A stretch of DNA of 64,000 nt, from NCBI GenBank assembly GCA_000146465.1, contig CP001950.1, one strand, 5' to 3'. Positions 3,929 through 43,627 of the stretch are shown piece by piece. A program made the position numbers and the translations under genes. Within the stretch, counting starts at the first letter, position 1, and each line of letters begins with the position of its first letter. Under the pieces are notes generated by a model. That model was not told the DNA's origin and searched no databases. It saw only the letters and a list, made by a program, of their open reading frames with translations.

Positions 3929-4126
3929 ATGGTAAAGGCAACAAAGGGATATTTCCTAAGGACAGAACCTAGTGTAAAGGAAGTGATATTGAAGCTTGGG
4001 GAGACAGAGAACTTCATAATAGAAGATATAAATGATACATGTATTTTTATCACTCCGGAAGCAGCCTCAGATATCAAGGAACGGGTGGAGCTTATAATGA
4101 ACAATGCAAAAAACCCAGGAAAGTAA
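3929..4126 (+). CDS. TFB5: TFIIH subunit Tfb5/p8 (TTDA), 65 aa.
   Basis: MVKATKGYFLRTEPSVKEVILKLGETENFIIEDINDTCIFITPEAASDIKERVELIM aligns along its whole length with yeast Tfb5 (MARARKGALVQCDPSIKALILQID...LEELDDTHLLVNPSKVEFVKHELNRLL). The track ORF from 3869 starts at TTG. The ATG is at 3929. Confidence 0.7.
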   Translation: MVKATKGYFLRTEPSVKEVILKLGETENFIIEDINDTCIFITPEAASDIKERVELIMNNAKNPGK

Positions 4127-10959: not shown

Positions 10960-11109
10960 TTATACATGGTTTAAGAACTCCTCCAGTTGAAGGATTTGGA
11001 TCCCTTCTAGACTGTCATTGCTCATCATAAATTCTCTTATTATTTCTTTAGCATCTTCCGGATTCATAGAAACTTCTCTAGCAATCTCCAACTTACTGTT
11101 ATAATCCAT
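10960..11109 (-). CDS. Possible small ORF (49 aa) upstream of, and on the same strand as, the WD40 gene. It is below the ORF-track size cutoff.
   Basis: ATG...TAA frame translating to MDYNSKLEIAREVSMNPEDAKEIIREFMMSNDSLEGIQILQLEEFLNHV. It lies in a 330-bp spacer that is otherwise empty. Short-helical, UBA/CUE-like composition. Weak call. Confidence 0.2.
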   Translation of the reverse strand: MDYNSKLEIAREVSMNPEDAKEIIREFMMSNDSLEGIQILQLEEFLNHV

Positions 11110-16654: not shown

Positions 16655-16909
16655 ATGGTTCCGGAATCTGTCAATAACCTTTACAAAGATCTTGAGTCTG
16701 TGATTCTTCAGTTCAAATCTCCAGCATTTGGAAACTATTTCCTCAAGAAAGCTAAGGAAGAGTTTGATAACATCAGCATCCAAACCTCAAAGCAGAAAGA
16801 TGAAGGGGCGATTGAGAGATATTTGAAAGATCAAGGAGAACTCCTGGATGTTCTTCGAAGACAAACAACCATTTACAACATGTTCTATGACGAGTCAAGT
16901 GGAATATGA
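16655..16909 (+). CDS. ISD11: ISD11/LYRM4 (LYR-motif partner of cysteine desulfurase Nfs1; mitochondrial/mitosomal Fe-S cluster assembly), 84 aa.
   Basis: 'NLYKDLESVILQFKSPAFGNYFLKKAKEEF...LLDVLRRQTTIYNMFY' aligns with yeast Isd11 ('NLYRNCLRLSKSFSDYNFRNYFLRSSRDKF...ELQVLKRQSMISQMY'). LYK/F motif present. Confidence 0.7.
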   Translation: MVPESVNNLYKDLESVILQFKSPAFGNYFLKKAKEEFDNISIQTSKQKDEGAIERYLKDQGELLDVLRRQTTIYNMFYDESSGI

Positions 16910-24085: not shown

Positions 24086-25477
24086 CTAGTCTTTTATCCC
24101 ATGCTTCTTTTTATGCTTTTCACTATATTTGTAATCAAAAAATAACTCTTCATTCTTATCTATATCTCTACTGGCATAGAATCCGATTCGCCTGATCCCA
24201 TTCACAAGCAGAACAAGTGCATTTAGGTTAGAATTTTTCTTCGAATGATTTATAAATCTAGACTCGTTTCCTATGAACCTGGAGTCGATGACATAGAGAG
24301 GAACTCCTTCCCTACTGTACAGATCAAACAAGTATGAACATCCTTTCAAATCATAGAAAGTCCCTCTTCTTTCTGCTTCCTCGTTACTTATTATCTCTCC
24401 CACATACTCAATGATAAACTTTCCCTTGGATATCTTTTCCTTGGCAAACAGGCCATATCCTTCTATTTTGCTAGACGACACATATATTGGCGACTTCTTA
24501 CCCAACTGTATATCTCTGTTTCCGCACTGGTTGCATGAACACGTCTGAATACATTCTCTCATTGCTTGTCTACATCTACATTTATTGTCGCATGCCGAAG
24601 AGCATCTACATCCTATGAAGAAGTTTTTGCATCCCGCACAAAGACAAGACATTTCACAGTTGGTCTTGTTAGAGATGCATACACATCCATTCTCTTTAGT
24701 ACAGTTTCCAGAATGGTCGCAAGGTGTAAAAAAGACATTGAAATCAACATTGTTCTTGCTCTTGCTTTCTATCAAATACTTGTGACGTCCTGGCGGAATA
24801 GCACAAGAATCTTTTATTTTTGTACAAGGAATGTATTTCTTATACCTAAAGTAGAAAAGCAGGGAAGCTATACATTCATACCCTTGAGACTCCATACAGG
24901 CCTCATAAAGGGCGTTATAAGCATTAAAGTCAAGCTCTTCCTTAGTGGATTCCTTGCATGTGATTTTCATTTTCTTGCATATATCTCCACAGATGTCTCT
25001 AGCCTCTACAAATGCATTTGTTGGATTCTTCTCAAAACCTACAGGCTTTATGCAAATTCCTTCTGTCTTGGAGTGCCATCTACATCCAAAAATAAAGCAT
25101 ACATTACAAAAGATTCTTCTCATTATTCGAAGTCCATCATCTTTAACACATTCCTCACGGAAACTTGATCTGTCCCAAACATCCAACTTCTTAGGAAGTG
25201 TCCCTTTAACAACTTCCTTATCATATGAATAGCATTTCTCTATAAATCCCGTGTTCTTGAATTCTGTGAGATTTATAAATCCTGAGGCACCCGGGATATA
25301 TGGAATGAATCTTAAAATAGGATCATCCTCTGTTTTTATGCTTGTATTAGTAAAGGTAAAGAAAGTACTTCGAGTTTTTGGTTCTATTCTAGGAATCACT
25401 ATCTTCTTAACGGAGGGATGGAAGCCGTTGGGTCTTAGATGGTTTTCGGTTGTTGGATTAGTGTTATTGCTTATCAT
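24086..25477 (-). CDS. EZH: E(z)/EZH-type histone H3K27 methyltransferase (CXC pre-SET + SET), the PRC2 catalytic subunit.
   Basis: Cys-rich CXC 'CDHSGNCTKENGCVCISNKTNCEMSCLCAGCKNFFIGCRCSSACDNKCRCRQ...CSCNQCGNR'. SET domain 'GLFAKEKISKGKFIIEYVGEIISNEEAERRGTFYD...NHSKKNSNLNALVLLVNGIRRIGFYASRDIDKNEELFFDYKYS' is closely parallel to EZH2. The track start 25489 is TTG. The ATG is at 25477. Confidence 0.85.
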   Translation of the reverse strand: MISNNTNPTTENHLRPNGFHPSVKKIVIPRIEPKTRSTFFTFTNTSIKTEDDPILRFIPYIPGASGFINLTEFKNTGFIEKCYSYDKEVVKGTLPKKLDVWDRSSFREECVKDDGLRIMRRIFCNVCFIFGCRWHSKTEGICIKPVGFEKNPTNAFVEARDICGDICKKMKITCKESTKEELDFNAYNALYEACMESQGYECIASLLFYFRYKKYIPCTKIKDSCAIPPGRHKYLIESKSKNNVDFNVFFTPCDHSGNCTKENGCVCISNKTNCEMSCLCAGCKNFFIGCRCSSACDNKCRCRQAMRECIQTCSCNQCGNRDIQLGKKSPIYVSSSKIEGYGLFAKEKISKGKFIIEYVGEIISNEEAERRGTFYDLKGCSYLFDLYSREGVPLYVIDSRFIGNESRFINHSKKNSNLNALVLLVNGIRRIGFYASRDIDKNEELFFDYKYSEKHKKKHGIKD

Positions 25478-25745
25478 CTTGGCCTCCAAAGCCCTTTTTT
25501 TCTTTTCAATCCTATATTTTTAAATCTTGGTACCTGGCTTGATGATGTCCTGCAAGGTAATTTGTTTGTGTTATCTCCAAGACCCATGGGAAACAAGAGA
25601 CGGCCAAGCTTTGAACAGGAGTTTATTGACTCATTTGTAAGTGATGAAGTTATCAACTGGAAATTTGACCCAATTCTTCTCGATGGAGAGCTTAAGGCTC
25701 GTTTAAGCCAGGAATAGATATTAACTGCAAATTTTCCTCCCCAGA

Positions 25746-26141
25746 ATGCAAGTATCTACTTGGCCACTTCCTCCAAGATTCAAGAAGAAGGAACCGCCAA
25801 AAATACCGTCCTCATACACAATCTTTGGTGTAGGATATAAGGTAGAAAACGGAGAGCCCACAAGCACTTCATTTTCTTCCGTAGAATTCGATAAAAGCAG
25901 ACTCAAAGATCTTCTTAACCTTTCCTTTTCCACATTTGTTGAGCTGCTAACATTTCCTCTCGACCATCAAGAGCTTATAGAAACAATAGGTAGCATACAT
26001 CTTGAAATTAACCAGATTCTCAACGGAGCTAAAAAGATGGAGGCTGTTTCTGAGATTAGAAGAATTAAGAATGATCATACAAGAAATAAAAACCGAATTG
26101 CCGAGGAGGTTAGAAGGGGAATATCCGACTTCAAGATATGA
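25746..26141 (+). CDS. Hypothetical 131-aa protein lying between the E(z) and EED genes.
   Basis: ATG-initiated ORF (MQVSTWPLPPRFKKKEPPK...). No recognisable domain. A second small ORF (25586..25717, 43 aa) lies just upstream in another frame. Confidence 0.3.
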   Translation: MQVSTWPLPPRFKKKEPPKIPSSYTIFGVGYKVENGEPTSTSFSSVEFDKSRLKDLLNLSFSTFVELLTFPLDHQELIETIGSIHLEINQILNGAKKMEAVSEIRRIKNDHTRNKNRIAEEVRRGISDFKI

Positions 26142-26167
26142 GTTATGGAATCTCAATTCTTAGGATA

Positions 26168-27103
26168 TCAGGCAAGACTTAACACTCTAAAGAAAGAATC
26201 TTCAAAAAGAATAAACATTCTGTTTCTAATTACGCGGAAGTCCCGTATCTTTCCCTTCTTGGTTGATCTTAATATTGTTGATTGGGAAGTGAATCCAATA
26301 TCATTCATCTTGAACAGAATTATGTCCTGTGATTCTGTCACTGCCACTAGCATCCCATCGTCTATCTCGAATCCCCGCAATAGTTGGCCTTCAAACTTAA
26401 CGCCTCCCACAAACTCGGTCCTTGATGTGGGTTCTACTTCCCCATATCTTGGAGAAATGATGTCGATTCTGCTTTCTCCAGAATAGAAAACCAGAAACTC
26501 TCTATAGAACCGAACACATTGAATGGGAAATTTATGGATCCTTGGCGATAAATAAATGGGTGCTACACATTGAAACTTGTTCAAGGAGGAAGGAATCCTC
26601 CAAACTCTTATTGAGCAGTCTGTTCCACCAGACGCCAGATACCTCAAGTCATCACTTACATCGATAGACAAGACATGGTCTCTATGGCCTGTGTAGCCTC
26701 CAAAGACACAGACACACTTTAGTTCCGAGACGTCCCACATCTTTATTGTTGTATCTTCACTACAGCTCAACAGATACTCATCCTTATATCTTTTTATCGA
26801 GAAAATTATCCCTCCATGGGCCTGAATATATCCAACAAATGTCCCTTTCGATAGATTCAGGACTTTTATGATTCCAAGACTTCCGCCGAGTGCTAATAAG
26901 ACATCATTCTGTCTTATAAGAAACTCACTGCATTGAAAGTTCTCGTCTGGATGCTCATCGAGAACTCTTTGGACCATCCTGAGATCGTCGGCATATGATA
27001 TAATCACAGAGGTTCTTTTTCCAACCAGCGATACTATCTCATATTCATCGCAGATACTCATAAATTCAAGATATGCATTGGGTATTTCTATTGACAAAGC
27101 CAT
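26168..27103 (-). CDS. EED: ESC/EED WD40 subunit of PRC2 (reduced, 311 aa).
   Basis: 'DENFQCSEF...LLALGGSLGIIKVLN', 'LLSCSEDTTIKMWDVSELKCVCVFGGYTGHRDHVLSIDVS' and 'GGTDCSIRVWRI' align with human EED 'DENFYTCAW...LLAVAGSRGIIRIIN', '[40 protein letters not shown]' and 'CGMDHSLKLWRI'. Confidence 0.85.
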   Translation of the reverse strand: MALSIEIPNAYLEFMSICDEYEIVSLVGKRTSVIISYADDLRMVQRVLDEHPDENFQCSEFLIRQNDVLLALGGSLGIIKVLNLSKGTFVGYIQAHGGIIFSIKRYKDEYLLSCSEDTTIKMWDVSELKCVCVFGGYTGHRDHVLSIDVSDDLRYLASGGTDCSIRVWRIPSSLNKFQCVAPIYLSPRIHKFPIQCVRFYREFLVFYSGESRIDIISPRYGEVEPTSRTEFVGGVKFEGQLLRGFEIDDGMLVAVTESQDIILFKMNDIGFTSQSTILRSTKKGKIRDFRVIRNRMFILFEDSFFRVLSLA

Positions 27104-28023: not shown

Positions 28024-28095
28024 TTCCTACTGGTCTAGCGGTTAGGATGTCTGCCTTTCAAGCAGGAGGTGGGGGTTCGATTCCCCCGTAGGGAA
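28024..28095 (+). tRNA. tRNA-Glu (anticodon TTC), 72 nt, no encoded CCA.
   Basis: Manually folded cloverleaf. Acceptor ttcctac/gtaggga (one G-U pair). D-stem gtct/ggat with loop agcggtta. Anticodon stem tctgc/gcagg with loop c-t-TTC-a-a. T-arm ggggg-ttcgatt-ccccc. Discriminator A. Confidence 0.9.
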
Positions 28096-33379: not shown

Positions 33380-33679
33380 ATGCCCCAACACCAGATGTTG
33401 TTCTATGAGTTTTTCAAATCCAACATAGGAAAACGGATTTTTGTGATGTTGAAAGCTGGAGTGTATGTGTCTGGAGTGCTAAACAGCATAGATCCATACC
33501 TCAACTTGAATCTCGAGGAAGTGGAGATCCTTAGCGACCACCCTGGATTGAGTGGGACTTCTCTGTGCTCAATACGAGGGTCGTCTATAAAATATATCCT
33601 TGCAGATAGAGATGCAGGATTACTTCAAGGAGTGAATGCTGGAAGCAGGCTTAGAATGATACTTGACAAATGTTATTGA
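33380..33679 (+). CDS. LSM2: Sm-like protein LSm2.
   Basis: 'MLFYEFFKSNIGKRIFVMLKAGVYVSGVLNSIDPYLNLNLEEVEI...CSIRGSSIKYI' compared with LSm2 'MLFYSFFKSLVGKDVVVELKNDLSICGTLHSVDQYLNIKLTDISV...CFIRGSVVRYV'. Confidence 0.8.
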   Translation: MPQHQMLFYEFFKSNIGKRIFVMLKAGVYVSGVLNSIDPYLNLNLEEVEILSDHPGLSGTSLCSIRGSSIKYILADRDAGLLQGVNAGSRLRMILDKCY

Positions 33680-38883: not shown

Positions 38884-39066
38884 CTCAAGGGATTGTATTA
38901 GGATTAGATTTTCATTCAACAAACAAACAACTTTTCGGGCACAGGAAGACTTAGTAAATTCAAGGCATATTCATTATGGAAGAGATCAAGAAGTCCTCTT
39001 TGGCATAGATGTCTCGTCCAGTAAAGTTGGAAGTGTGGCTGAAGTTTACATCCTGGACATATATCG

Positions 39067-39137
39067 GCTGGATTAGCTTAGTGGTAGAGCATGGCGTTGT
39101 GGCCGCCAAGATGCGGGTTCGATTCCCGCATTCAGCA
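39067..39137 (+). tRNA. tRNA-His (anticodon GTG), with a genomically encoded G at -1 (39066).
   Basis: Acceptor gctggat/attcagc. D-arm gctt-agtggta-gagc. Anticodon stem tggcg/cgcca with loop t-t-GTG-g-c. T-arm gcggg-ttcgatt-cccgc. Discriminator A. Followed by cttttg...ctttttcttt T-runs. Confidence 0.9.
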
Positions 39138-39138
39138 C

Positions 39139-39157
39139 TTTTGCTTGGGACACTTTT
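39139..39157 (+). terminator. Pol III terminator region (T4 then T5 runs) 3' of tRNA-His.
   Basis: 'cttttgcttgggacactttttct' directly after the tRNA. Confidence 0.45.
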
Positions 39158-39162
39158 TCTTT

Positions 39163-40353
39163 CTAGTTTTCCTCCTTCCTTCCAATTTTAATTTCAGGAA
39201 GAACAAGTAAAGGACCTCCAACTCCTCTTCTTTTCAATTCCCAATATTCCAATACTTTCAAAAGATCTGGGAAGTTTCCTTCCTTTTGGGTATATGCTTT
39301 AATCTTTGAAAGAATGGATGGTGTGGCAACCGGCTGTAGATTGCAGAGCTTTCTGAATAGCGTAACCTGAGGGCATGCCATTGGAGCCTTTTTTCGGATT
39401 ATTGGAGGATTTCGTAACTTTTCATATCCAAAATACCTTATTTTGGTCACTTTTCTGTAGCCTAATTCATATGGACTTCTTTTCAAAGGACTATGGTCGA
39501 TACAATAAGATATTCTATTTTCCAAATCAAAGTAACATTTGTCTAGAGCACATGACACATGGTATTTCCTAGAACACATAAAATACGAGCAGCATATCAC
39601 AGTTCCAACAGTTTTTTCACAGAAAGAACATCCGGATTCTTTGGTATAGGAGCTAACATCAATGGGGTCTTTTGATAATGGATGGCCAAACGAGAGAGAT
39701 CTGTTGAACATAGCACACAAAACATGGCCCCATCTGTTGTCGGATGTCTGCTTGAAGATGCCGTCTGAAGAAGGGCAGAAAGAACACTCTTTTAGGTCCT
39801 TTCCATATATACATCCCTTGCACAACCAAAAATCACTCAGATCTTGTATTCCATAGCAGTTTTCATGCACACATATTCCACATCCTTGGCATACAAAAAG
39901 AGTTCCGGTGCGTTCCGATGCATGCCTTGTACAGATATCACAGAAGGAAGTGGGTTCTATAGGTTTTACGTGCCTGGATACTAAATCCTGCACGAATAGG
40001 AACCATTCCTTTTCTAATCTGTCGATAACTAACTCAAAAACATCTTTGGAGATATCAATTCCCGATCTCTCCAAATAAAGTTGATCATAGCTGTCTAGTT
40101 TATACACGATAGACTCAAAGAAGTTTCCTTTTTGATTCCTTCTAGTTGTTTTCTTGCTATCCGATTCACTTTCTGATGCATAGGTGCTTTTTGAAATAAT
40201 CTGATGCATTTTCTCGATCTCCAGATTATGATATATCGATCTGTAATCACGTTCCTCCCTCGGAACGCCTCCAAGGCATTTGGAAGTAGACATTTTTGGG
40301 TAGTAAGATTCCCCATAAGGAATGGAAAATTTTTTTTCTCGGCACATAACCAT
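39163..40353 (-). CDS. PHD-zinc knuckle-PHD (PZP) finger protein of the BRPF/JADE/Nto1 HAT-scaffold family.
   Basis: PHD1 'CDICTRHASERTGTLFVCQGCGICVHENCYG'. Zn knuckle 'WLCKGC...CSFCPSSDGIFKQTSDNRWGHVLCAMF'. Extended PHD 'CSFCEKTVGTVICCSYFMCSRKYHVSCA'. The track start 40374 is GTG. The first ATG is at 40353. Confidence 0.6.
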   Translation of the reverse strand: MVMCREKKFSIPYGESYYPKMSTSKCLGGVPREERDYRSIYHNLEIEKMHQIISKSTYASESESDSKKTTRRNQKGNFFESIVYKLDSYDQLYLERSGIDISKDVFELVIDRLEKEWFLFVQDLVSRHVKPIEPTSFCDICTRHASERTGTLFVCQGCGICVHENCYGIQDLSDFWLCKGCIYGKDLKECSFCPSSDGIFKQTSDNRWGHVLCAMFNRSLSFGHPLSKDPIDVSSYTKESGCSFCEKTVGTVICCSYFMCSRKYHVSCALDKCYFDLENRISYCIDHSPLKRSPYELGYRKVTKIRYFGYEKLRNPPIIRKKAPMACPQVTLFRKLCNLQPVATPSILSKIKAYTQKEGNFPDLLKVLEYWELKRRGVGGPLLVLPEIKIGRKEEN

Positions 40354-43300
40354 AGCCGAGACAGGAGGAGACACTTGGATTTACAGTAAAGGATACACGG
40401 CTAGAAAAAATATCATCTACAATGAGTCTGGCGAAAGTATATATGAGATTCCATTTGTCCCAAAACACTTCCATGTTTTAGCATTTGAATACTTCTTAGT
40501 CGATGAACTAAACGCTATATATCTGGTTAACAAAAATACATTGGAAATATTGGAGATTGGAAGAGTGAAAGATGAAGTGGTTGCTCTCAGTGTATCAAGA
40601 GATGAAAAATGGTGTGTTATTGCCTCTACTACGGAGATTCTTCTCTTTGATTCATATATTGACTTCAAGAAGTCGATCAAATTCGAATTTAATGAAGTAA
40701 TTCAGATTGAATGGACGGACTACGAGGTTTTTGGTGTACTAACTAGTAACATGATATTCTTTTATGATATCGAACTTAATTTGGTAGGAAAAAGCAAAGA
40801 AAGGGAATATTCAAGTATTTCTTGGAGAAGCAAATATAACGTATTTGGATGCTCAACGGGCAAGGAAATCTGCTTCGTTGAACCAAATGGACTTGAACAT
40901 GGAGATCCATTAGAGGTACGATGTAACAAATTGACTTTTCTTGAAAATGAAGATTTGCTGGCTACTATTGAAAATAATGACGAAGGTTCTCTGCTCAAAG
41001 TGTTTTACACAAAGAATTTTCATTGGTATTTGAAACTTTTGAAGCAAGTACCTGGAGGATTCCTATGTAGTGAAAAAAATGCCGTGCTGTTCAAAGATAA
41101 AGAGAGGATAGCAAAGGTTTTTTTGTTTGAGGAGAAGACGCATAGCGGCCCAGAATATTACGTGATTGATGGAAATTGCATACTTTACACAGACTTTTCG
41201 AAGAAAATCGTTCCACCACCTTTCTTCTCTGTAAAAATTGAGTTTGATAGTAATGTTATAGATATCTTTCCATCAGCAAAGAAGGGAGCAGTTCTCCTGA
41301 GAGACAAAGTGATTATTTTCAAATGGAACGGAGATAATTTTATTAGCGAAGAAGCTTTTTTTTTGGGAAGGGAATTTGACTCTGTCGTTCAGTTTAAAAG
41401 TTTTCTCCTTCTAAAGAGTAAAGATGAATTTCTTATAAAGAAAATGAATGGCGGTGAGGAAATACGTATCAACAGAAGTGTAAGAATTCAAGAAGCAACA
41501 AGAAGAAACATTATGAATGAAGAAAACATTAATGTCGTTACTAGCCAGCTCTGTGAAATATTGAACAGTTCGGTTGATGTTGTTAGATGTTACAACTTTG
41601 AAGAAAAGCTCTACTTACTGTTAGAAGATGGTTCTGTTATTCATAATGGTAGAATAGTGCATTCAGGAATTGACCTAGAGAAAAGATTTGAAATAGTCAT
41701 AGGAGAAGATATCTTTGTTCATAATGGAACGAAGCTTTTTAAAAATGGTAACGTTACAGAGAATATAACTTCATTTCTGATTGGAGAGCATGGAATAATT
41801 ACTGTATCTGAAGGAACAGGTAGATTTTTCTTAGGCCTTAAAGAAAGCACTTGCCAGGTTGATCATAGGTTGGAGCTTCTGTGTGCTCTGGACTTTAGGG
41901 TTGTTGGATTGACTAGGCATGGAACACTCGAGACATACACGCCTAAGATTTACACGCTAACTTTTATAAGGAAGCTTTTACTTGATGGGAAGTATAAAGA
42001 TGCCATAGAAGGATGCCAAAGATATATAATTCCTTTTGGAGTATTTTTGGATTATAACATTGAACTTTGCAAGTTCATAGAAGCATGCAAAGATACTCAT
42101 CTTATATCCTTCTTCAACGAAGCCCTACAGACGTTTGGAGATTTCGATTTTATTCTTGAAAGTGAAAAGGTAAAAAGATTCAGAAGGGTTTTTAATTTTC
42201 CTATGGTCTTGGAGCCTGGAAAGGGAAAAGAATATTTTGAAGTGTTAATAGCTAACGACGAATCAATAAGTGATGGCTCTCTTGAACATCTAATGGAATA
42301 TAGAAATGGAAAGAGCCAAGAAGACTCAAAATTGGGTAACTCCAGATACTCAAGAGACCTTCCTAGAGACGGGAAGAAACTATGTGGGAGAAACACAAAA
42401 GATTTCTTTAACGAGCTTTTCCAGTCATTGGATCTGGAAAGAAATTTCAAGTTTGCCATTTTCGCACTAGTGAAAGTAAAAAGAATGGATCTCGCGCTCC
42501 AAGTAGCTAAGCATGATATGAAGGGGGGAATTGGATATATGCTTTCTATAACTAATATGAGTAACATTATCAATTCTGCATTGGAAACTTGTGAAGAAGA
42601 TTTGGTGCATGAGGTGATGAAAATTTGCCAGAAGGACTCATCTGACTTTCTTTTTCTGATACGTAACTGTGAGAAAGACCTACGAGGGTTTAAGATTAAT
42701 GACTTCCTTAAGAACAGAATAGATGCACTTTATCACATAAGCAGAACCGGAATGGTGGATTTGGAAAGAGAATATATCCAGAAGCACGATCTTGTTGAAG
42801 AGGCATTGATGTATGAGGCTTGTGGTTTGAGTATTAGAAAGGAAGGATATTATTTCAACCTATGTGCAGAGCTTCTTCCGCCAGAAAAGGCATTGATTCT
42901 TTTCAAGAGAGCCCAAAACATAGAAAAGGCATTAGAAACAGCTATAGAAAATCTCTATTGGAGAGAAGCATTAGGCATGTGTGTCAAAGAAAGACAAGAA
43001 GAACTCGGTAAGTCACTGGCTAGTAGGCTTATTGATTCAGGGAAGAATTATGAAGCAGGACAGTTATTTGAGGAGTTCTTGGGAGATACAGAAAAGGCCT
43101 TCATTGAATATGTAAAGGCAAAAAGTATGGGAAATGCTCTTAGACTGTGTTCTGATGGAGAACTTCTCATGAAGGAAGCACGTGAAATTCTCAAGGAAAA
43201 GCTTCTGGTACTTGATGATATAAAGAAATCGTTTATAAAATACAGAGACAGACTGAAAACTCTTGAGGAAAGAGAAGATGATTGTATGAGTGAGACATCG

Positions 43301-43627
43301 TTTAGTTACACCGAAAACAGAAGAGGTAGTAAGAGTACAAAAGTAAAGAATAGGCCAGGAGGAGGATATGAAAAAGAGTTTGTACTCGGAAAGATTAGAG
43401 ATATTGGCTTGAATTTGATGAGGTGGAGGGATGAAACCGAGGATCTTTTGAAGGTATTTGAGAAATTTGAGATGAAAGAGTGCATCGATGCACATAATAC
43501 CTCATTTAGCGCAGTAGGTGAAGTTTTAAAGATGGAAATAGACAATGTATTCGGAACAGAAAAAAGACATCTTTATGAATCAAATAGGCCGATTGTTGAG
43601 AAGCCAGATCTCAGCAAATGGCTTTAA
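40322..43627 (+). CDS. Large WD40/TPR-type protein, tentatively Elongator subunit Elp1/Iki3.
   Basis: 1101-aa ORF. N-terminal beta-propeller-like repeats. C-terminal helical region with 'YEAGQLFEEFLGDTEKAFIEYVKAKSMGNALRLC', reminiscent of the Elp1 C-terminal TPR/dimerisation region. Tentative. Confidence 0.45.
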   Translation: MENFFSRHITIAETGGDTWIYSKGYTARKNIIYNESGESIYEIPFVPKHFHVLAFEYFLVDELNAIYLVNKNTLEILEIGRVKDEVVALSVSRDEKWCVIASTTEILLFDSYIDFKKSIKFEFNEVIQIEWTDYEVFGVLTSNMIFFYDIELNLVGKSKEREYSSISWRSKYNVFGCSTGKEICFVEPNGLEHGDPLEVRCNKLTFLENEDLLATIENNDEGSLLKVFYTKNFHWYLKLLKQVPGGFLCSEKNAVLFKDKERIAKVFLFEEKTHSGPEYYVIDGNCILYTDFSKKIVPPPFFSVKIEFDSNVIDIFPSAKKGAVLLRDKVIIFKWNGDNFISEEAFFLGREFDSVVQFKSFLLLKSKDEFLIKKMNGGEEIRINRSVRIQEATRRNIMNEENINVVTSQLCEILNSSVDVVRCYNFEEKLYLLLEDGSVIHNGRIVHSGIDLEKRFEIVIGEDIFVHNGTKLFKNGNVTENITSFLIGEHGIITVSEGTGRFFLGLKESTCQVDHRLELLCALDFRVVGLTRHGTLETYTPKIYTLTFIRKLLLDGKYKDAIEGCQRYIIPFGVFLDYNIELCKFIEACKDTHLISFFNEALQTFGDFDFILESEKVKRFRRVFNFPMVLEPGKGKEYFEVLIANDESISDGSLEHLMEYRNGKSQEDSKLGNSRYSRDLPRDGKKLCGRNTKDFFNELFQSLDLERNFKFAIFALVKVKRMDLALQVAKHDMKGGIGYMLSITNMSNIINSALETCEEDLVHEVMKICQKDSSDFLFLIRNCEKDLRGFKINDFLKNRIDALYHISRTGMVDLEREYIQKHDLVEEALMYEACGLSIRKEGYYFNLCAELLPPEKALILFKRAQNIEKALETAIENLYWREALGMCVKERQEELGKSLASRLIDSGKNYEAGQLFEEFLGDTEKAFIEYVKAKSMGNALRLCSDGELLMKEAREILKEKLLVLDDIKKSFIKYRDRLKTLEEREDDCMSETSFSYTENRRGSKSTKVKNRPGGGYEKEFVLGKIRDIGLNLMRWRDETEDLLKVFEKFEMKECIDAHNTSFSAVGEVLKMEIDNVFGTEKRHLYESNRPIVEKPDLSKWL

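What the first reader, a model, noticed from the sequence alone, without database searches (positions are those of the whole stretch)
25478..26167. Unassigned 690-bp spacer with two small ORFs between the E(z) and EED genes
Spacers elsewhere in the window are mostly under 250 bp. This one holds a 43-aa ORF (25586..25717, MGNKRRPSFEQEFIDSFVSDEVINWKFDPILLDGELKARLSQE) and, in another frame, a 131-aa ORF (25746..26141). Neither has a recognisable domain. Their position between the two PRC2 genes makes them candidates for a lineage-specific PRC2 accessory subunit, for example a minimal VEFS-like partner. They could also be a frameshifted single gene, or a promoter with spurious ORFs.
Basis: inference. 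Interest (0 to 1): 0.5.

Follow-up and report, generated by a model that had tools for sequence, protein, structure and literature searches.

The report
Two known small genes, not spacer
The "empty" 690-bp interval in this Encephalitozoon intestinalis window holds two real, already annotated genes: a minimal Mediator subunit 7 and a published 43-residue microsporidian small protein of unknown function. It is ordinary and shows no evident link to the neighbouring Polycomb-type genes.

Summary
Both ORFs are at the stated coordinates, and a 690-bp gene-free gap would be exceptional here, where the median spacer is about 82 bp.

The interval is not unassigned. The window is Encephalitozoon intestinalis ATCC 50506 chromosome IX.

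- **131-aa ORF (25746..26141, +).** This is Eint_091780, the ortholog of ECU09_1760, a minimal Mediator subunit 7. Four results support this: a sub-threshold but specific Pfam Med7 match, Med7 chains as the top six PDB profile hits, Mediator-complex chains as the top five Foldseek hits, and Bourbon 2008.
- **43-aa ORF (25586..25717, +).** This is Eint_091775, the ortholog of ECU09_1755. Belkorchia et al. 2015 predicted this small CDS and validated it by RACE-PCR in E. cuniculi.
  - It is under strong purifying selection (pN/pS 0.085).
  - It carries its own CCC start signal in all seven loci examined.
  - In a Nosema-type relative it lies away from Med7 and from the SET and WD40 genes.

No conserved splice sites or frame relationship join the two ORFs. 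No VEFS, DSS1/Sem1 or APC13 similarity was found.

With both genes counted, the remaining spacers are 108, 28 and 26 bp, which is normal. The only open question is what the 43-aa protein does.

The parts
24086..25477 (-). Flanking gene: E(z)/EZH2-like CXC+SET-domain protein (463 aa, annotated 'SET domain-containing protein').
   Evidence: Pfam SET E = 1.2e-24. The best PDB hits are EZH2/EZH1 at E about 1e-38, well ahead of SUV39H2 and EHMT2. Exact match to ADM12305.1.
25478..25585 (.). 108-bp divergent intergenic region between the SET gene start and the small-CDS start. It carries a GGG-like motif for the minus-strand gene (CCC on the + strand at 25492..25494), a conserved ATTTGTTT at 25560..25567, and CCC at 25583..25585 directly before the small-CDS ATG.
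   Evidence: Poorly conserved except for ATTTGTTT and CCCATGG. The CCC-like start signal is described in PMC2803860.
25586..25717 (+). Small CDS Eint_091775 (43 aa), ortholog of ECU09_1755. It has a basic N-terminus and an invariant EFIDSFVxDExxNWxFD core. Function unknown.
   Evidence: Exact match to XP_009161900.1 / Eint_091775 and to the sequence in the Belkorchia 2015 supplement. Conserved in 5 Encephalitozoon-type loci plus two more distant microsporidians. pN/pS 0.085, no stops. RACE-validated in E. cuniculi.
25718..25745 (+). 28-bp spacer carrying the Med7 start signals: AAATTT (25729..25734) and CCCC (25739..25742).
   Evidence: A CCC motif is present 2-4 nt upstream of the Med7 ATG in all six loci. 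The motifs are as described in PMC2803860.
25746..26141 (+). Eint_091780, a minimal Mediator subunit 7 (Med7, 131 aa). It has N-terminal proline-rich stretches and a C-terminal three-helix region.
   Evidence: 100% identical to Eint_091780. Pfam Med7 matches in 6 of 7 orthologs, best E = 5.7e-5. Med7 chains are the top six hits of the PDB profile search. The top five Foldseek hits are chains of Mediator-PIC complexes. UniRef names ECU09_1760 as Med7. Bourbon 2008 detected E. cuniculi Med7.
26142..26167 (.). 26-bp convergent spacer between the Med7 stop and the WD40-gene stop.
26168..27103 (-). Flanking gene: WD40-repeat protein (311 aa). EED-like, but not securely assigned.
   Evidence: Many generic WD40 Pfam families. 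EED chains match at 69.8 bits as one continuous stretch, below generic WD40 proteins.

Best explanation
The interval is not a spacer. It holds two independent, conventional protein-coding genes on the + strand of Encephalitozoon intestinalis chromosome IX. Each has the short microsporidian CCC-type start signal immediately upstream of its ATG.

The 131-aa gene (Eint_091780) encodes a pared-down Mediator subunit 7. By homology, its N-terminal proline-rich stretches (WPLPPRF and PPKIPSSYTIFG) correspond to the Med31-binding part of Med7. Its three C-terminal helices correspond to the part that pairs with Med21 to form the hinge of the Mediator middle module. This is inferred, not shown.

The 43-aa gene (Eint_091775) encodes a microsporidia-restricted small protein. 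It has a basic N-terminus and an invariant acidic-aromatic core, EFIDSFVxDExxNWxFD. My best guess is that it is a largely unstructured peptide that folds onto a partner protein through this motif. This is inference with low confidence. The partner and function are unknown, and its position next to the E(z)-like and WD40 genes appears to be synteny, not function.

With both genes counted, the spacers are 108, 28 and 26 bp, typical of this genome.
For: Identity of window and genes:
- The 131-aa product is 100% identical to Eint_091780. Orthologs of 131 aa exist in E. hellem and E. cuniculi and in three unnamed sequence sets (two from sequencing-run assemblies, one from an ENA contig).
- Both products are exact matches to NCBI entries.
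- The 43-aa sequence is identical to EINT_091775 in the supplement of PMC4589312.

Med7:
- Pfam Med7 E = 8.9e-4 over residues 9-127.
- 6 of 7 orthologs match Med7, best E = 5.7e-5, with no competing family.
- The ortholog profile finds Med7 chains from three organisms as its top six PDB hits. The alignment includes PPPIKDSYMMFG against ppkvpssYtsfG.
- The AF2 model has helices 50-69, 74-92 and 97-127.
- Its top five Foldseek hits are chains of Mediator-PIC complexes. Two of them, 7enc_g and 7ena_g, are named Med7.
- Bourbon 2008 reported E. cuniculi Med7.

Small CDS:
- It is conserved at 77-84% identity in five loci.
- pN/pS is 0.085 with no stops. The only other low-ratio frame, the antisense shadow frame, has two stops in E. 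hellem.
- An exhaustive HMMER search finds further 36-40-aa homologs with the same core.
- CCC lies directly before the ATG in 7 of 7 loci. In the window, 22 of 44 genes have CCC within 20 nt upstream, against 10.6% for random 20-mers.
- All 32 small CDSs in the Belkorchia set, this one included, were confirmed as transcribed by RACE-PCR in E. cuniculi.

Independence of the two genes:
- The gap between them is 27, 28, 29 or 198 nt.
- They are unlinked in L011.
Against: - The Med7 matches are each weak. Pfam is below its gathering score, the PDB profile E-values are 0.014-0.3, and Foldseek E is 0.013 with a model of pLDDT 67.
- No transcript data exist here for E. intestinalis itself.
- The proposed way the 43-aa protein works (partner-binding peptide) rests only on composition, conservation pattern and a low-confidence model (pLDDT 66).
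- No homolog outside microsporidia and no solved structure was found.
Confidence: 0.92

Rival explanations
1. One or both ORFs encode a lineage-specific PRC2 accessory subunit, such as a minimal VEFS-like partner of the neighbouring E(z)-like and EED-like proteins.
For: The ORFs lie between an EZH2-like SET gene and a WD40 gene that matches EED among many others. This order is kept in all Encephalitozoon-type loci and in L010. The function of the 43-aa protein is unknown, so it cannot be excluded outright.
Against: The 131-aa product is Med7. There is no VEFS-box or other PRC2 family hit for either product (at E up to 0.1; at E up to 10). In a Nosema-type microsporidian the 43-aa homolog lies between a P-type ATPase gene and a DnaJ gene, with no SET, WD40 or Med7 gene among the seven called genes of the 5.9-kb locus. 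Microsporidian gene order is generally conserved, so linkage within the Encephalitozoon/Ordospora lineage carries little weight.
Confidence: 0.03
2. The two ORFs are one gene, joined by an intron or by a programmed or erroneous frameshift, with the 43-aa ORF supplying an N-terminal exon of Med7.
For: They are on the same strand and only 28 nt apart. There is a GTAAGT at 25637..25642, and a TTAAC followed by a pyrimidine run and CAG just before the Med7 ATG in E. intestinalis. The Pfam Med7 match starts at profile position 48.
Against: - The CAG is CAA, AAA or CCT in other species.
- GTAAGT is GTCAGC or GTTAGC in E. hellem and L008, and lies inside the conserved codons F-V-S. The residues after it remain conserved as coding sequence.
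- Removing 25637..25744 gives an out-of-frame junction for the ATG-25586 frame (sequence reasoning).
- The gap length varies between 27, 28, 29 and 198 nt.
- The genes are unlinked in L011.
- Med7 residues 5-14 already align to the N-terminal WPDPPAF of Chaetomium Med7.
Confidence: 0.02
3. The 43-aa ORF acts mainly as an upstream ORF, or as the first cistron of a bicistronic transcript that tunes Med7 translation, and not through its peptide.
For: The tight 27-29-nt spacing is conserved across Encephalitozoon. Transcriptional overrun into downstream genes is documented in E. cuniculi (PMC2803860).
Against: The peptide sequence itself is under strong purifying selection. It is conserved in species where it is 198 nt from Med7 (L010) or not next to Med7 at all (L011). 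Med7 has its own AAATTT and CCCC signals. Reported 5'UTRs are under 7 nt.
Confidence: 0.06
4. The 43-aa protein is an extremely reduced homolog of a universal small acidic subunit such as DSS1/Sem1 (Rpn15) or APC13. These have not been found in microsporidia.
For: By eye it resembles the acidic-aromatic EFxxF...W motif, and in E. intestinalis the ELKARL tail resembles the ELKAEL of yeast Sem1 (own recognition). Rpn15 is reported as unidentified in microsporidia (bioRxiv 10.1101/2022.07.11.499521).
Against: - BLASTP against human DSS1 gives E = 40; the DSS1 sequence was verified.
- There is no DSS1_SEM1 or Apc13 Pfam hit at E up to 10.
- The family profile finds no DSS1/Sem1 chain in the PDB at E up to 10, although human DSS1 alone is in 141 entries.
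- Profile scores are at most 2.5 bits, and Smith-Waterman scores are no better than composition-preserving shuffles (p at least 0.08).
- The C-terminal helix is not conserved in P0012 and P0014.
- The Vairimorpha 26S map shows no Rpn15 density.
Confidence: 0.03
5. The interval is only promoter, 5'UTR and 3'UTR sequence of the flanking genes, and the ORFs are spurious.
For: Some assemblies annotate a longer E(z) N-terminus (499-503 aa) that runs through the 108-bp region up to the small-CDS start.
Against: Both ORFs are conserved in length and sequence across species. The selection test supports coding. Transcription was shown by RACE. The Med7 homology is specific.
Confidence: 0.01

Closest known systems
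Mediator subunit 7 (Med7; Pfam PF05983; e.g. human MED7 in 7emf_G, Chaetomium Med7 in 6xp5_G, E. cuniculi ECU09_1760)
   Same: It has proline-rich N-terminal stretches followed by Y..FG, and a C-terminal run of three helices. It is the best and only consistent hit by sequence profile and by fold. It is 75% identical to the E. cuniculi protein that UniRef names Med7.
   Different: It is only 131 aa, against 222-246 aa in yeast, human and Chaetomium. The segment between the two proline stretches and the C-terminal tail are missing. It scores below Pfam's gathering threshold.
ECU09_1755 small-CDS orthologous group (Belkorchia et al. 2015, PLoS One, PMC4589312)
   Same: The sequence is identical to the published EINT_091775. 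It has the same position, the same length, and a CCC signal.
   Different: Nothing differs; it is that gene. This work adds a selection test, further homologs from assemblies and metagenomes, and the finding that it is unlinked from Med7 and E(z) in a Nosema-type genome.
DSS1/Sem1 (Rpn15) and other very small acidic subunits
   Same: Small size, acidic-aromatic composition, and probable disorder until bound.
   Different: No significant sequence similarity in any test. The spacing of the aromatic residues differs, and there is no conserved C-terminal helix.
SUZ12 VEFS-box / PRC2 accessory subunits
   Same: Only the genomic position between an EZH2-like gene and an EED-like gene.
   Different: No profile match. 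The 131-aa product is Med7. The 43-aa product is too short for a VEFS box and is not linked to PRC2-type genes in L011.

Membership tests
Med7 (PF05983) | Sequence match to the Med7 profile at or above the curated threshold | tested here: inconclusive
   19.9 bits against a cut-off of 25.8, E = 8.9e-4. 6 of 7 orthologs match, best E = 5.7e-5, and no other family competes. The ortholog profile ranks six Med7 sequences first in the PDB, at E = 0.014-0.3.
Med7 (PF05983) | N-terminal proline-rich stretches (the Med31-binding region in yeast, per established knowledge of Med7N/Med31) | tested here: met
   WP.PP.F at residues 6-12 and PP.(I/V)P..Y..FG at residues 17-28 keep their W, P, Y, F and G positions in all 7 orthologs. 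They align to WPDPPAF of Chaetomium Med7 and PPPIKDSYMMFG of mouse or human MED7.
Med7 (PF05983) | C-terminal helical region with the Med7 fold (the part that pairs with Med21) | tested here: met
   AF2 predicts helices 50-69, 74-92 and 97-127, at moderate confidence (pLDDT 67). The top five Foldseek PDB hits are chains of Mediator-PIC complexes (8ceo_i, 7enc_g, 7ena_g, 7ui9_g, 7uio_Ag), of which 7enc_g and 7ena_g are named Med7. Top probability is 0.99 and E = 0.013.
Med7 (PF05983) | Physical membership of the Mediator complex | not testable with these tools
   This needs purification or cross-linking from Encephalitozoon.
ECU09_1755 small-CDS group | Orthology by sequence and position | tested here: met
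   Identical to the published EINT_091775 and to the NCBI entry Eint_091775. 84% identical to ECU09_1755, in the same position upstream of Med7.
ECU09_1755 small-CDS group | Evidence of protein coding (purifying selection in the sense frame) | tested here: met
   pN/pS 0.085 with no stops in 5 species. The antisense shadow frame has stops in E. hellem.
ECU09_1755 small-CDS group | Transcription | not testable with these tools
   Reported by RACE-PCR for E. cuniculi only (PMC4589312). No E. intestinalis expression data are available here.
PRC2 accessory / SUZ12 VEFS-box | Similarity to a VEFS-box or another PRC2 subunit profile | tested here: not met
   No such Pfam hit for the 131-aa product at E up to 0.1, or for the 43-aa product at E up to 10.
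PRC2 accessory / SUZ12 VEFS-box | Conserved linkage with E(z)/EED beyond close relatives | tested here: not met
   The L011 homolog is flanked by P-type ATPase and DnaJ genes.
DSS1/Sem1 (PF05160) | Significant sequence or profile similarity to DSS1/Sem1 | tested here: not met
   Scores are at chance level.

The most novel reading that the evidence does not exclude
The 43-aa protein (Eint_091775) has an invariant EFIDSFVxDExxNWxFD motif and no detectable homolog outside microsporidia. It could be a still unrecognised, microsporidia-specific small subunit or regulator of a nuclear complex encoded beside it, either Mediator via Med7 or the reduced E(z)/EED-type methyltransferase. In that case its tight linkage to these genes in the Encephalitozoon/Ordospora lineage would be functional and not only syntenic.
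Probability: 0.05. Interest if true: 0.45.

Novelty: already known. Interest (0 to 1): 0.1.

Why it matters
It matters little beyond correct annotation. The case shows that unusually long "spacers" in compact microsporidian genomes are usually very small genes that a domain-based or length-based reading misses. Several other long gaps in this window behave the same way.

The only open biology is the function of the 43-residue protein. It is conserved across distant microsporidia and has been uncharacterised since its description in 2015. A partner screen could assign it to a complex.

Tried and rejected
- **Intron joining the ORFs (GTAAGT 25637 to CAG 25744).** Rejected. The splice-like sites are not conserved, the "intron" is conserved as coding sequence, and the junction is out of frame.
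- **Frameshifted single gene.** Rejected, because the gap length varies and the genes are unlinked in L011.
- **Conservation of the 43-aa region due to an antisense N-terminal extension of the E(z) gene.** Rejected. The antisense frame has stops in E. hellem and is not in frame with E(z) in E. intestinalis.
- **DSS1/Sem1 identity for the 43-aa protein.** This was my own idea from motif resemblance. It has no support from BLASTP, Pfam, the PDB profile search, profile scoring or a shuffle test.
- **APC13 identity.** No support.
- **PIP-box, FxDxF and LIR short-motif readings of the core.** I considered these from memory and dropped them as untestable here. The Q of the PIP-like motif is not conserved.
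- **Two large proteins among the exhaustive-search hits (P0013, P0015).** These are repeat artefacts: many 6-bit matches summed.
- **Rfam and tRNA scans of the interval.** Nothing found.
- **AF2 model of the 43-aa protein.** It gave only two short low-confidence helices, so no fold search was attempted.

Full report
**Observation**

The window region 25200..26500 and the mechanical ORF list confirm both ORFs on the + strand. The 43-aa ORF runs 25586..25717, and the 131-aa ORF runs 25746..26141 in a different frame.

They lie between the ATG (25477) of a minus-strand 463-aa gene and the stop (26168) of a minus-strand 311-aa gene. A crude map of non-overlapping ATG-ORFs of at least 100 aa gives 42 spacers with a median of 82 bp, 35 of them under 250 bp.

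The single larger gap in that map (38884..40321) is an artefact of my overlap rule. It contains tRNA-His and a 403-aa PHD-finger ORF on the minus strand.

**Where the window comes from**

The 131-aa product is 100% identical to [quoted passage not shown]. It is found on E. intestinalis assemblies with the same neighbours. Exact look-up shows that both ORF products and both flanking proteins are existing NCBI entries:

| Window feature | Annotation |
|---|---|
| 43-aa product | Eint_091775 |
| E. cuniculi 43-aa ortholog | ECU09_1755 |
| E. cuniculi 131-aa ortholog | ECU09_1760, named "Mediator of RNA polymerase II transcription subunit 7" by UniRef |
| Minus-strand 463-aa gene | "SET domain-containing protein" |
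| Minus-strand 311-aa gene | a WD40 protein |

The interval is therefore not unassigned.

**The 131-aa gene is Med7**

- Pfam gives Med7 (PF05983) at E = 8.9e-4 and 19.9 bits, below the 25.8-bit cut-off. The match covers residues 9-127 against profile positions 48-183.
- Scanning seven orthologs separately, six hit Med7 (best E = 5.7e-5), and no other family recurs.
- A profile of the seven orthologs (alignment A4) searched against PDB sequences ranks six distinct Med7 sequences first, from Chaetomium, mouse and human, at E = 0.014-0.3. The alignments pair WP.PP.F with WPDPPAF, and PP.vPssYtsFG with PPPIKDSYMMFG.
- The AlphaFold2 model from six orthologs has moderate confidence (pLDDT 66.7) and shows three helices: 50-69, 74-92 and 97-127.
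- Foldseek against the PDB puts five chains of Mediator-PIC complexes first (8ceo_i, 7enc_g, 7ena_g, 7ui9_g, 7uio_Ag). Two of them, 7enc_g and 7ena_g, are named Med7. Top probability is 0.99 and E = 0.013.
- Bourbon (2008, PMC2475620) already reported an E. cuniculi Med7.

Each line is weak on its own, but all point to one family and nothing competes. The protein begins with the first conserved Med7 motif, so it needs no upstream exon. It is a shortened Med7, as is usual for microsporidian proteins.

**The 43-aa gene is a known small CDS**

A full-text search for the locus tags found one paper: Belkorchia et al. 2015, PLoS One (PMC4589312). Its Table 1 lists ECU09_1755 / Eint_091775 / EHEL_091775 / EROM_091755, 43 aa. 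It reports orthologs in Nosema ceranae, Ordospora colligata, N. apis and Edhazardia aedis. It reports no InterPro domain, transmembrane helix or signal peptide. The paper states that all 32 predicted small CDSs were confirmed as transcribed in E. cuniculi by 5' and/or 3' RACE-PCR. The supplement prints the E. intestinalis sequence, which is identical to the window ORF.

My own checks agree with this:

- The ORF is present with the same length in E. cuniculi, E. hellem and two further Encephalitozoon-type assemblies, at 77-84% identity. Residues 9-33 are nearly invariant.
- In the DNA alignment, the region upstream of the ORF is poorly conserved while the ORF is well conserved.
- A Nei-Gojobori count over codons 1-33 gives pS 0.727 and pN 0.062 (ratio 0.085), with no stops in the sense frame.
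- The antisense frame that shares third positions also has a low ratio (0.156). However, it carries two stop codons in E. hellem and is not in frame with the E(z) gene in E. intestinalis, so it is a shadow of the sense frame.
- An exhaustive HMMER search of 1.84 billion representatives found only microsporidian small proteins: P0012 (40 aa) and P0014 (36 aa), which share EFIDSFV.DE..NW.FD. It also found two long repeat proteins whose scores are sums of 6-bit matches, which are artefacts.

**Two genes, not one**

- The 43-aa ORF ends in a stop codon in every species.
- The distance to the Med7 ATG is 28, 27, 29, 29 and 28 nt in the five Encephalitozoon-type loci and 198 nt in L010. L010 keeps the order SET(-), small CDS(+), Med7(+), WD40(-).
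- In L011 the homolog sits between a P-type ATPase gene and a DnaJ gene. L011 is a microsporidian contig: it carries a gene with the microsporidial 8TM domain. No Med7, SET or WD40 gene is among the seven called genes of that 5.9-kb locus.
- The splice-like features of E. intestinalis are not conserved. These are GTAAGT at 25637 and TTAAC-pyrimidine-CAG before 25745. The GTAAGT lies in the conserved codons F-V-S, and the residues after it are conserved as protein.
- Every locus has CCC directly before the small-CDS ATG, and a CCC(C) 2-4 nt before the Med7 ATG. E. intestinalis also has AAATTT at 25729..25734.
- These are the start signals described for E. cuniculi. [quoted passage not shown]
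- In this window, 22 of 44 genes have CCC within 20 nt of the ATG, against 10.6% of random 20-mers.

**The PRC2 idea**

The SET gene is EZH2-like. EZH2 and EZH1 chains score 131-137 bits over the CXC+SET region, against about 91 bits for SUV39H2.

The WD40 gene matches EED at 69.8 bits as one continuous stretch. Generic WD40 proteins score higher, so "EED" is plausible but not shown.

Neither ORF product matches a VEFS-box or any PRC2 family. One ORF is Med7, and the other is unlinked from PRC2-type genes in L011. Position alone is weak evidence in microsporidia, where gene order is conserved over long evolutionary distances (established knowledge, e.g. the Slamovits 2004 reference listed).

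**What the 43-aa protein does**

This is unknown. It has a basic N-terminus (KRR) and an invariant acidic-aromatic core. AF2 predicts only two short helices (9-17 and 34-42) at pLDDT 66. It has no homolog in the PDB. I infer, with low confidence, a peptide that folds on a partner.

I tested my own suspicion that it is a minimal DSS1/Sem1. That subunit is reported as unidentified in microsporidia, with no density in the Vairimorpha 26S map.

- BLASTP against human DSS1 gives E = 40. The DSS1 sequence was verified against the PDB.
- There is no Pfam hit at E up to 10.
- There is no DSS1/Sem1 chain in the PDB profile search.
- A 9-sequence profile scores at most 2.5 bits against DSS1/Sem1 and APC13.
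- Smith-Waterman scores are no better than shuffles (p at least 0.08).

The idea is dropped.

**Verdict**

The remaining spacers of 108, 28 and 26 bp are normal. Novelty: already known. Interest is low. The only loose end is the function of the conserved 43-residue protein.

Noticed in passing
window 10960..11109 (-): A 49-aa ORF (MDYNSKLEIAREVSMNPEDAKEIIREFMMSNDSLEGIQILQLEEFLNHV) with CCCC just upstream sits in a 329-bp 'spacer'. It is identical to EINT_091675, another small CDS from the Belkorchia 2015 paper.
   Followed up: partly
window 3929..4126 (+), 16655..16909 (+), 33380..33679 (+): Three other long spacers of the >=100-aa gene map each hold a small ORF. By eye, the 65-aa ORF looks like TFIIH Tfb5/p8, the 84-aa ORF like a LYR/Isd11-type protein, and the 99-aa ORF like an Sm/LSm protein. 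These assignments are my own recognition and were not tested. They show that long gaps here are generally small genes.
   Followed up: no
window 39163..40374 (-) and 40322..43627 (+): A 403-aa PHD-finger ORF on the minus strand has a mechanical GTG start. Its first ATGs overlap the start of the divergent 1101-aa gene, so its true start codon is uncertain. tRNA-His lies next to it at 39067..39138 (+), and tRNA-Glu at 28024..28095 (+).
   Followed up: partly
window 25478..25656 (-); L004 1332..2843, L006 1336..2838, L009 1412..2911: Gene models for the E(z)-like SET protein differ between assemblies. Some give 463-469 aa and others 499-503 aa. The longer models run through the poorly conserved 108-bp region up to, or in L009 into, the small CDS on the other strand. 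The extension is not conserved and, in E. intestinalis, is not in frame, so the short model seems right.
   Followed up: partly
window 24086..25477 (-) and 26168..27103 (-): An EZH2-like CXC+SET gene and a possibly EED-like WD40 gene lie within 700 bp of each other in a microsporidian. This arrangement is conserved in all Encephalitozoon-type loci and in L010. The EED assignment is weak, because generic WD40 proteins score higher. No SUZ12-like gene was looked for.
   Followed up: partly
window 25560..25567 (+): An A(T/C)TTGTTT octamer 19-26 nt upstream of the small-CDS ATG is conserved in all five Encephalitozoon-type loci, while the rest of the upstream region is not. It is possibly a promoter element.
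   Followed up: no
window 26145..26486 (+): A 113-aa ORF lies antisense to the 3' part of the WD40 gene. It has no Pfam hit and is most likely a shadow ORF.
   Followed up: no
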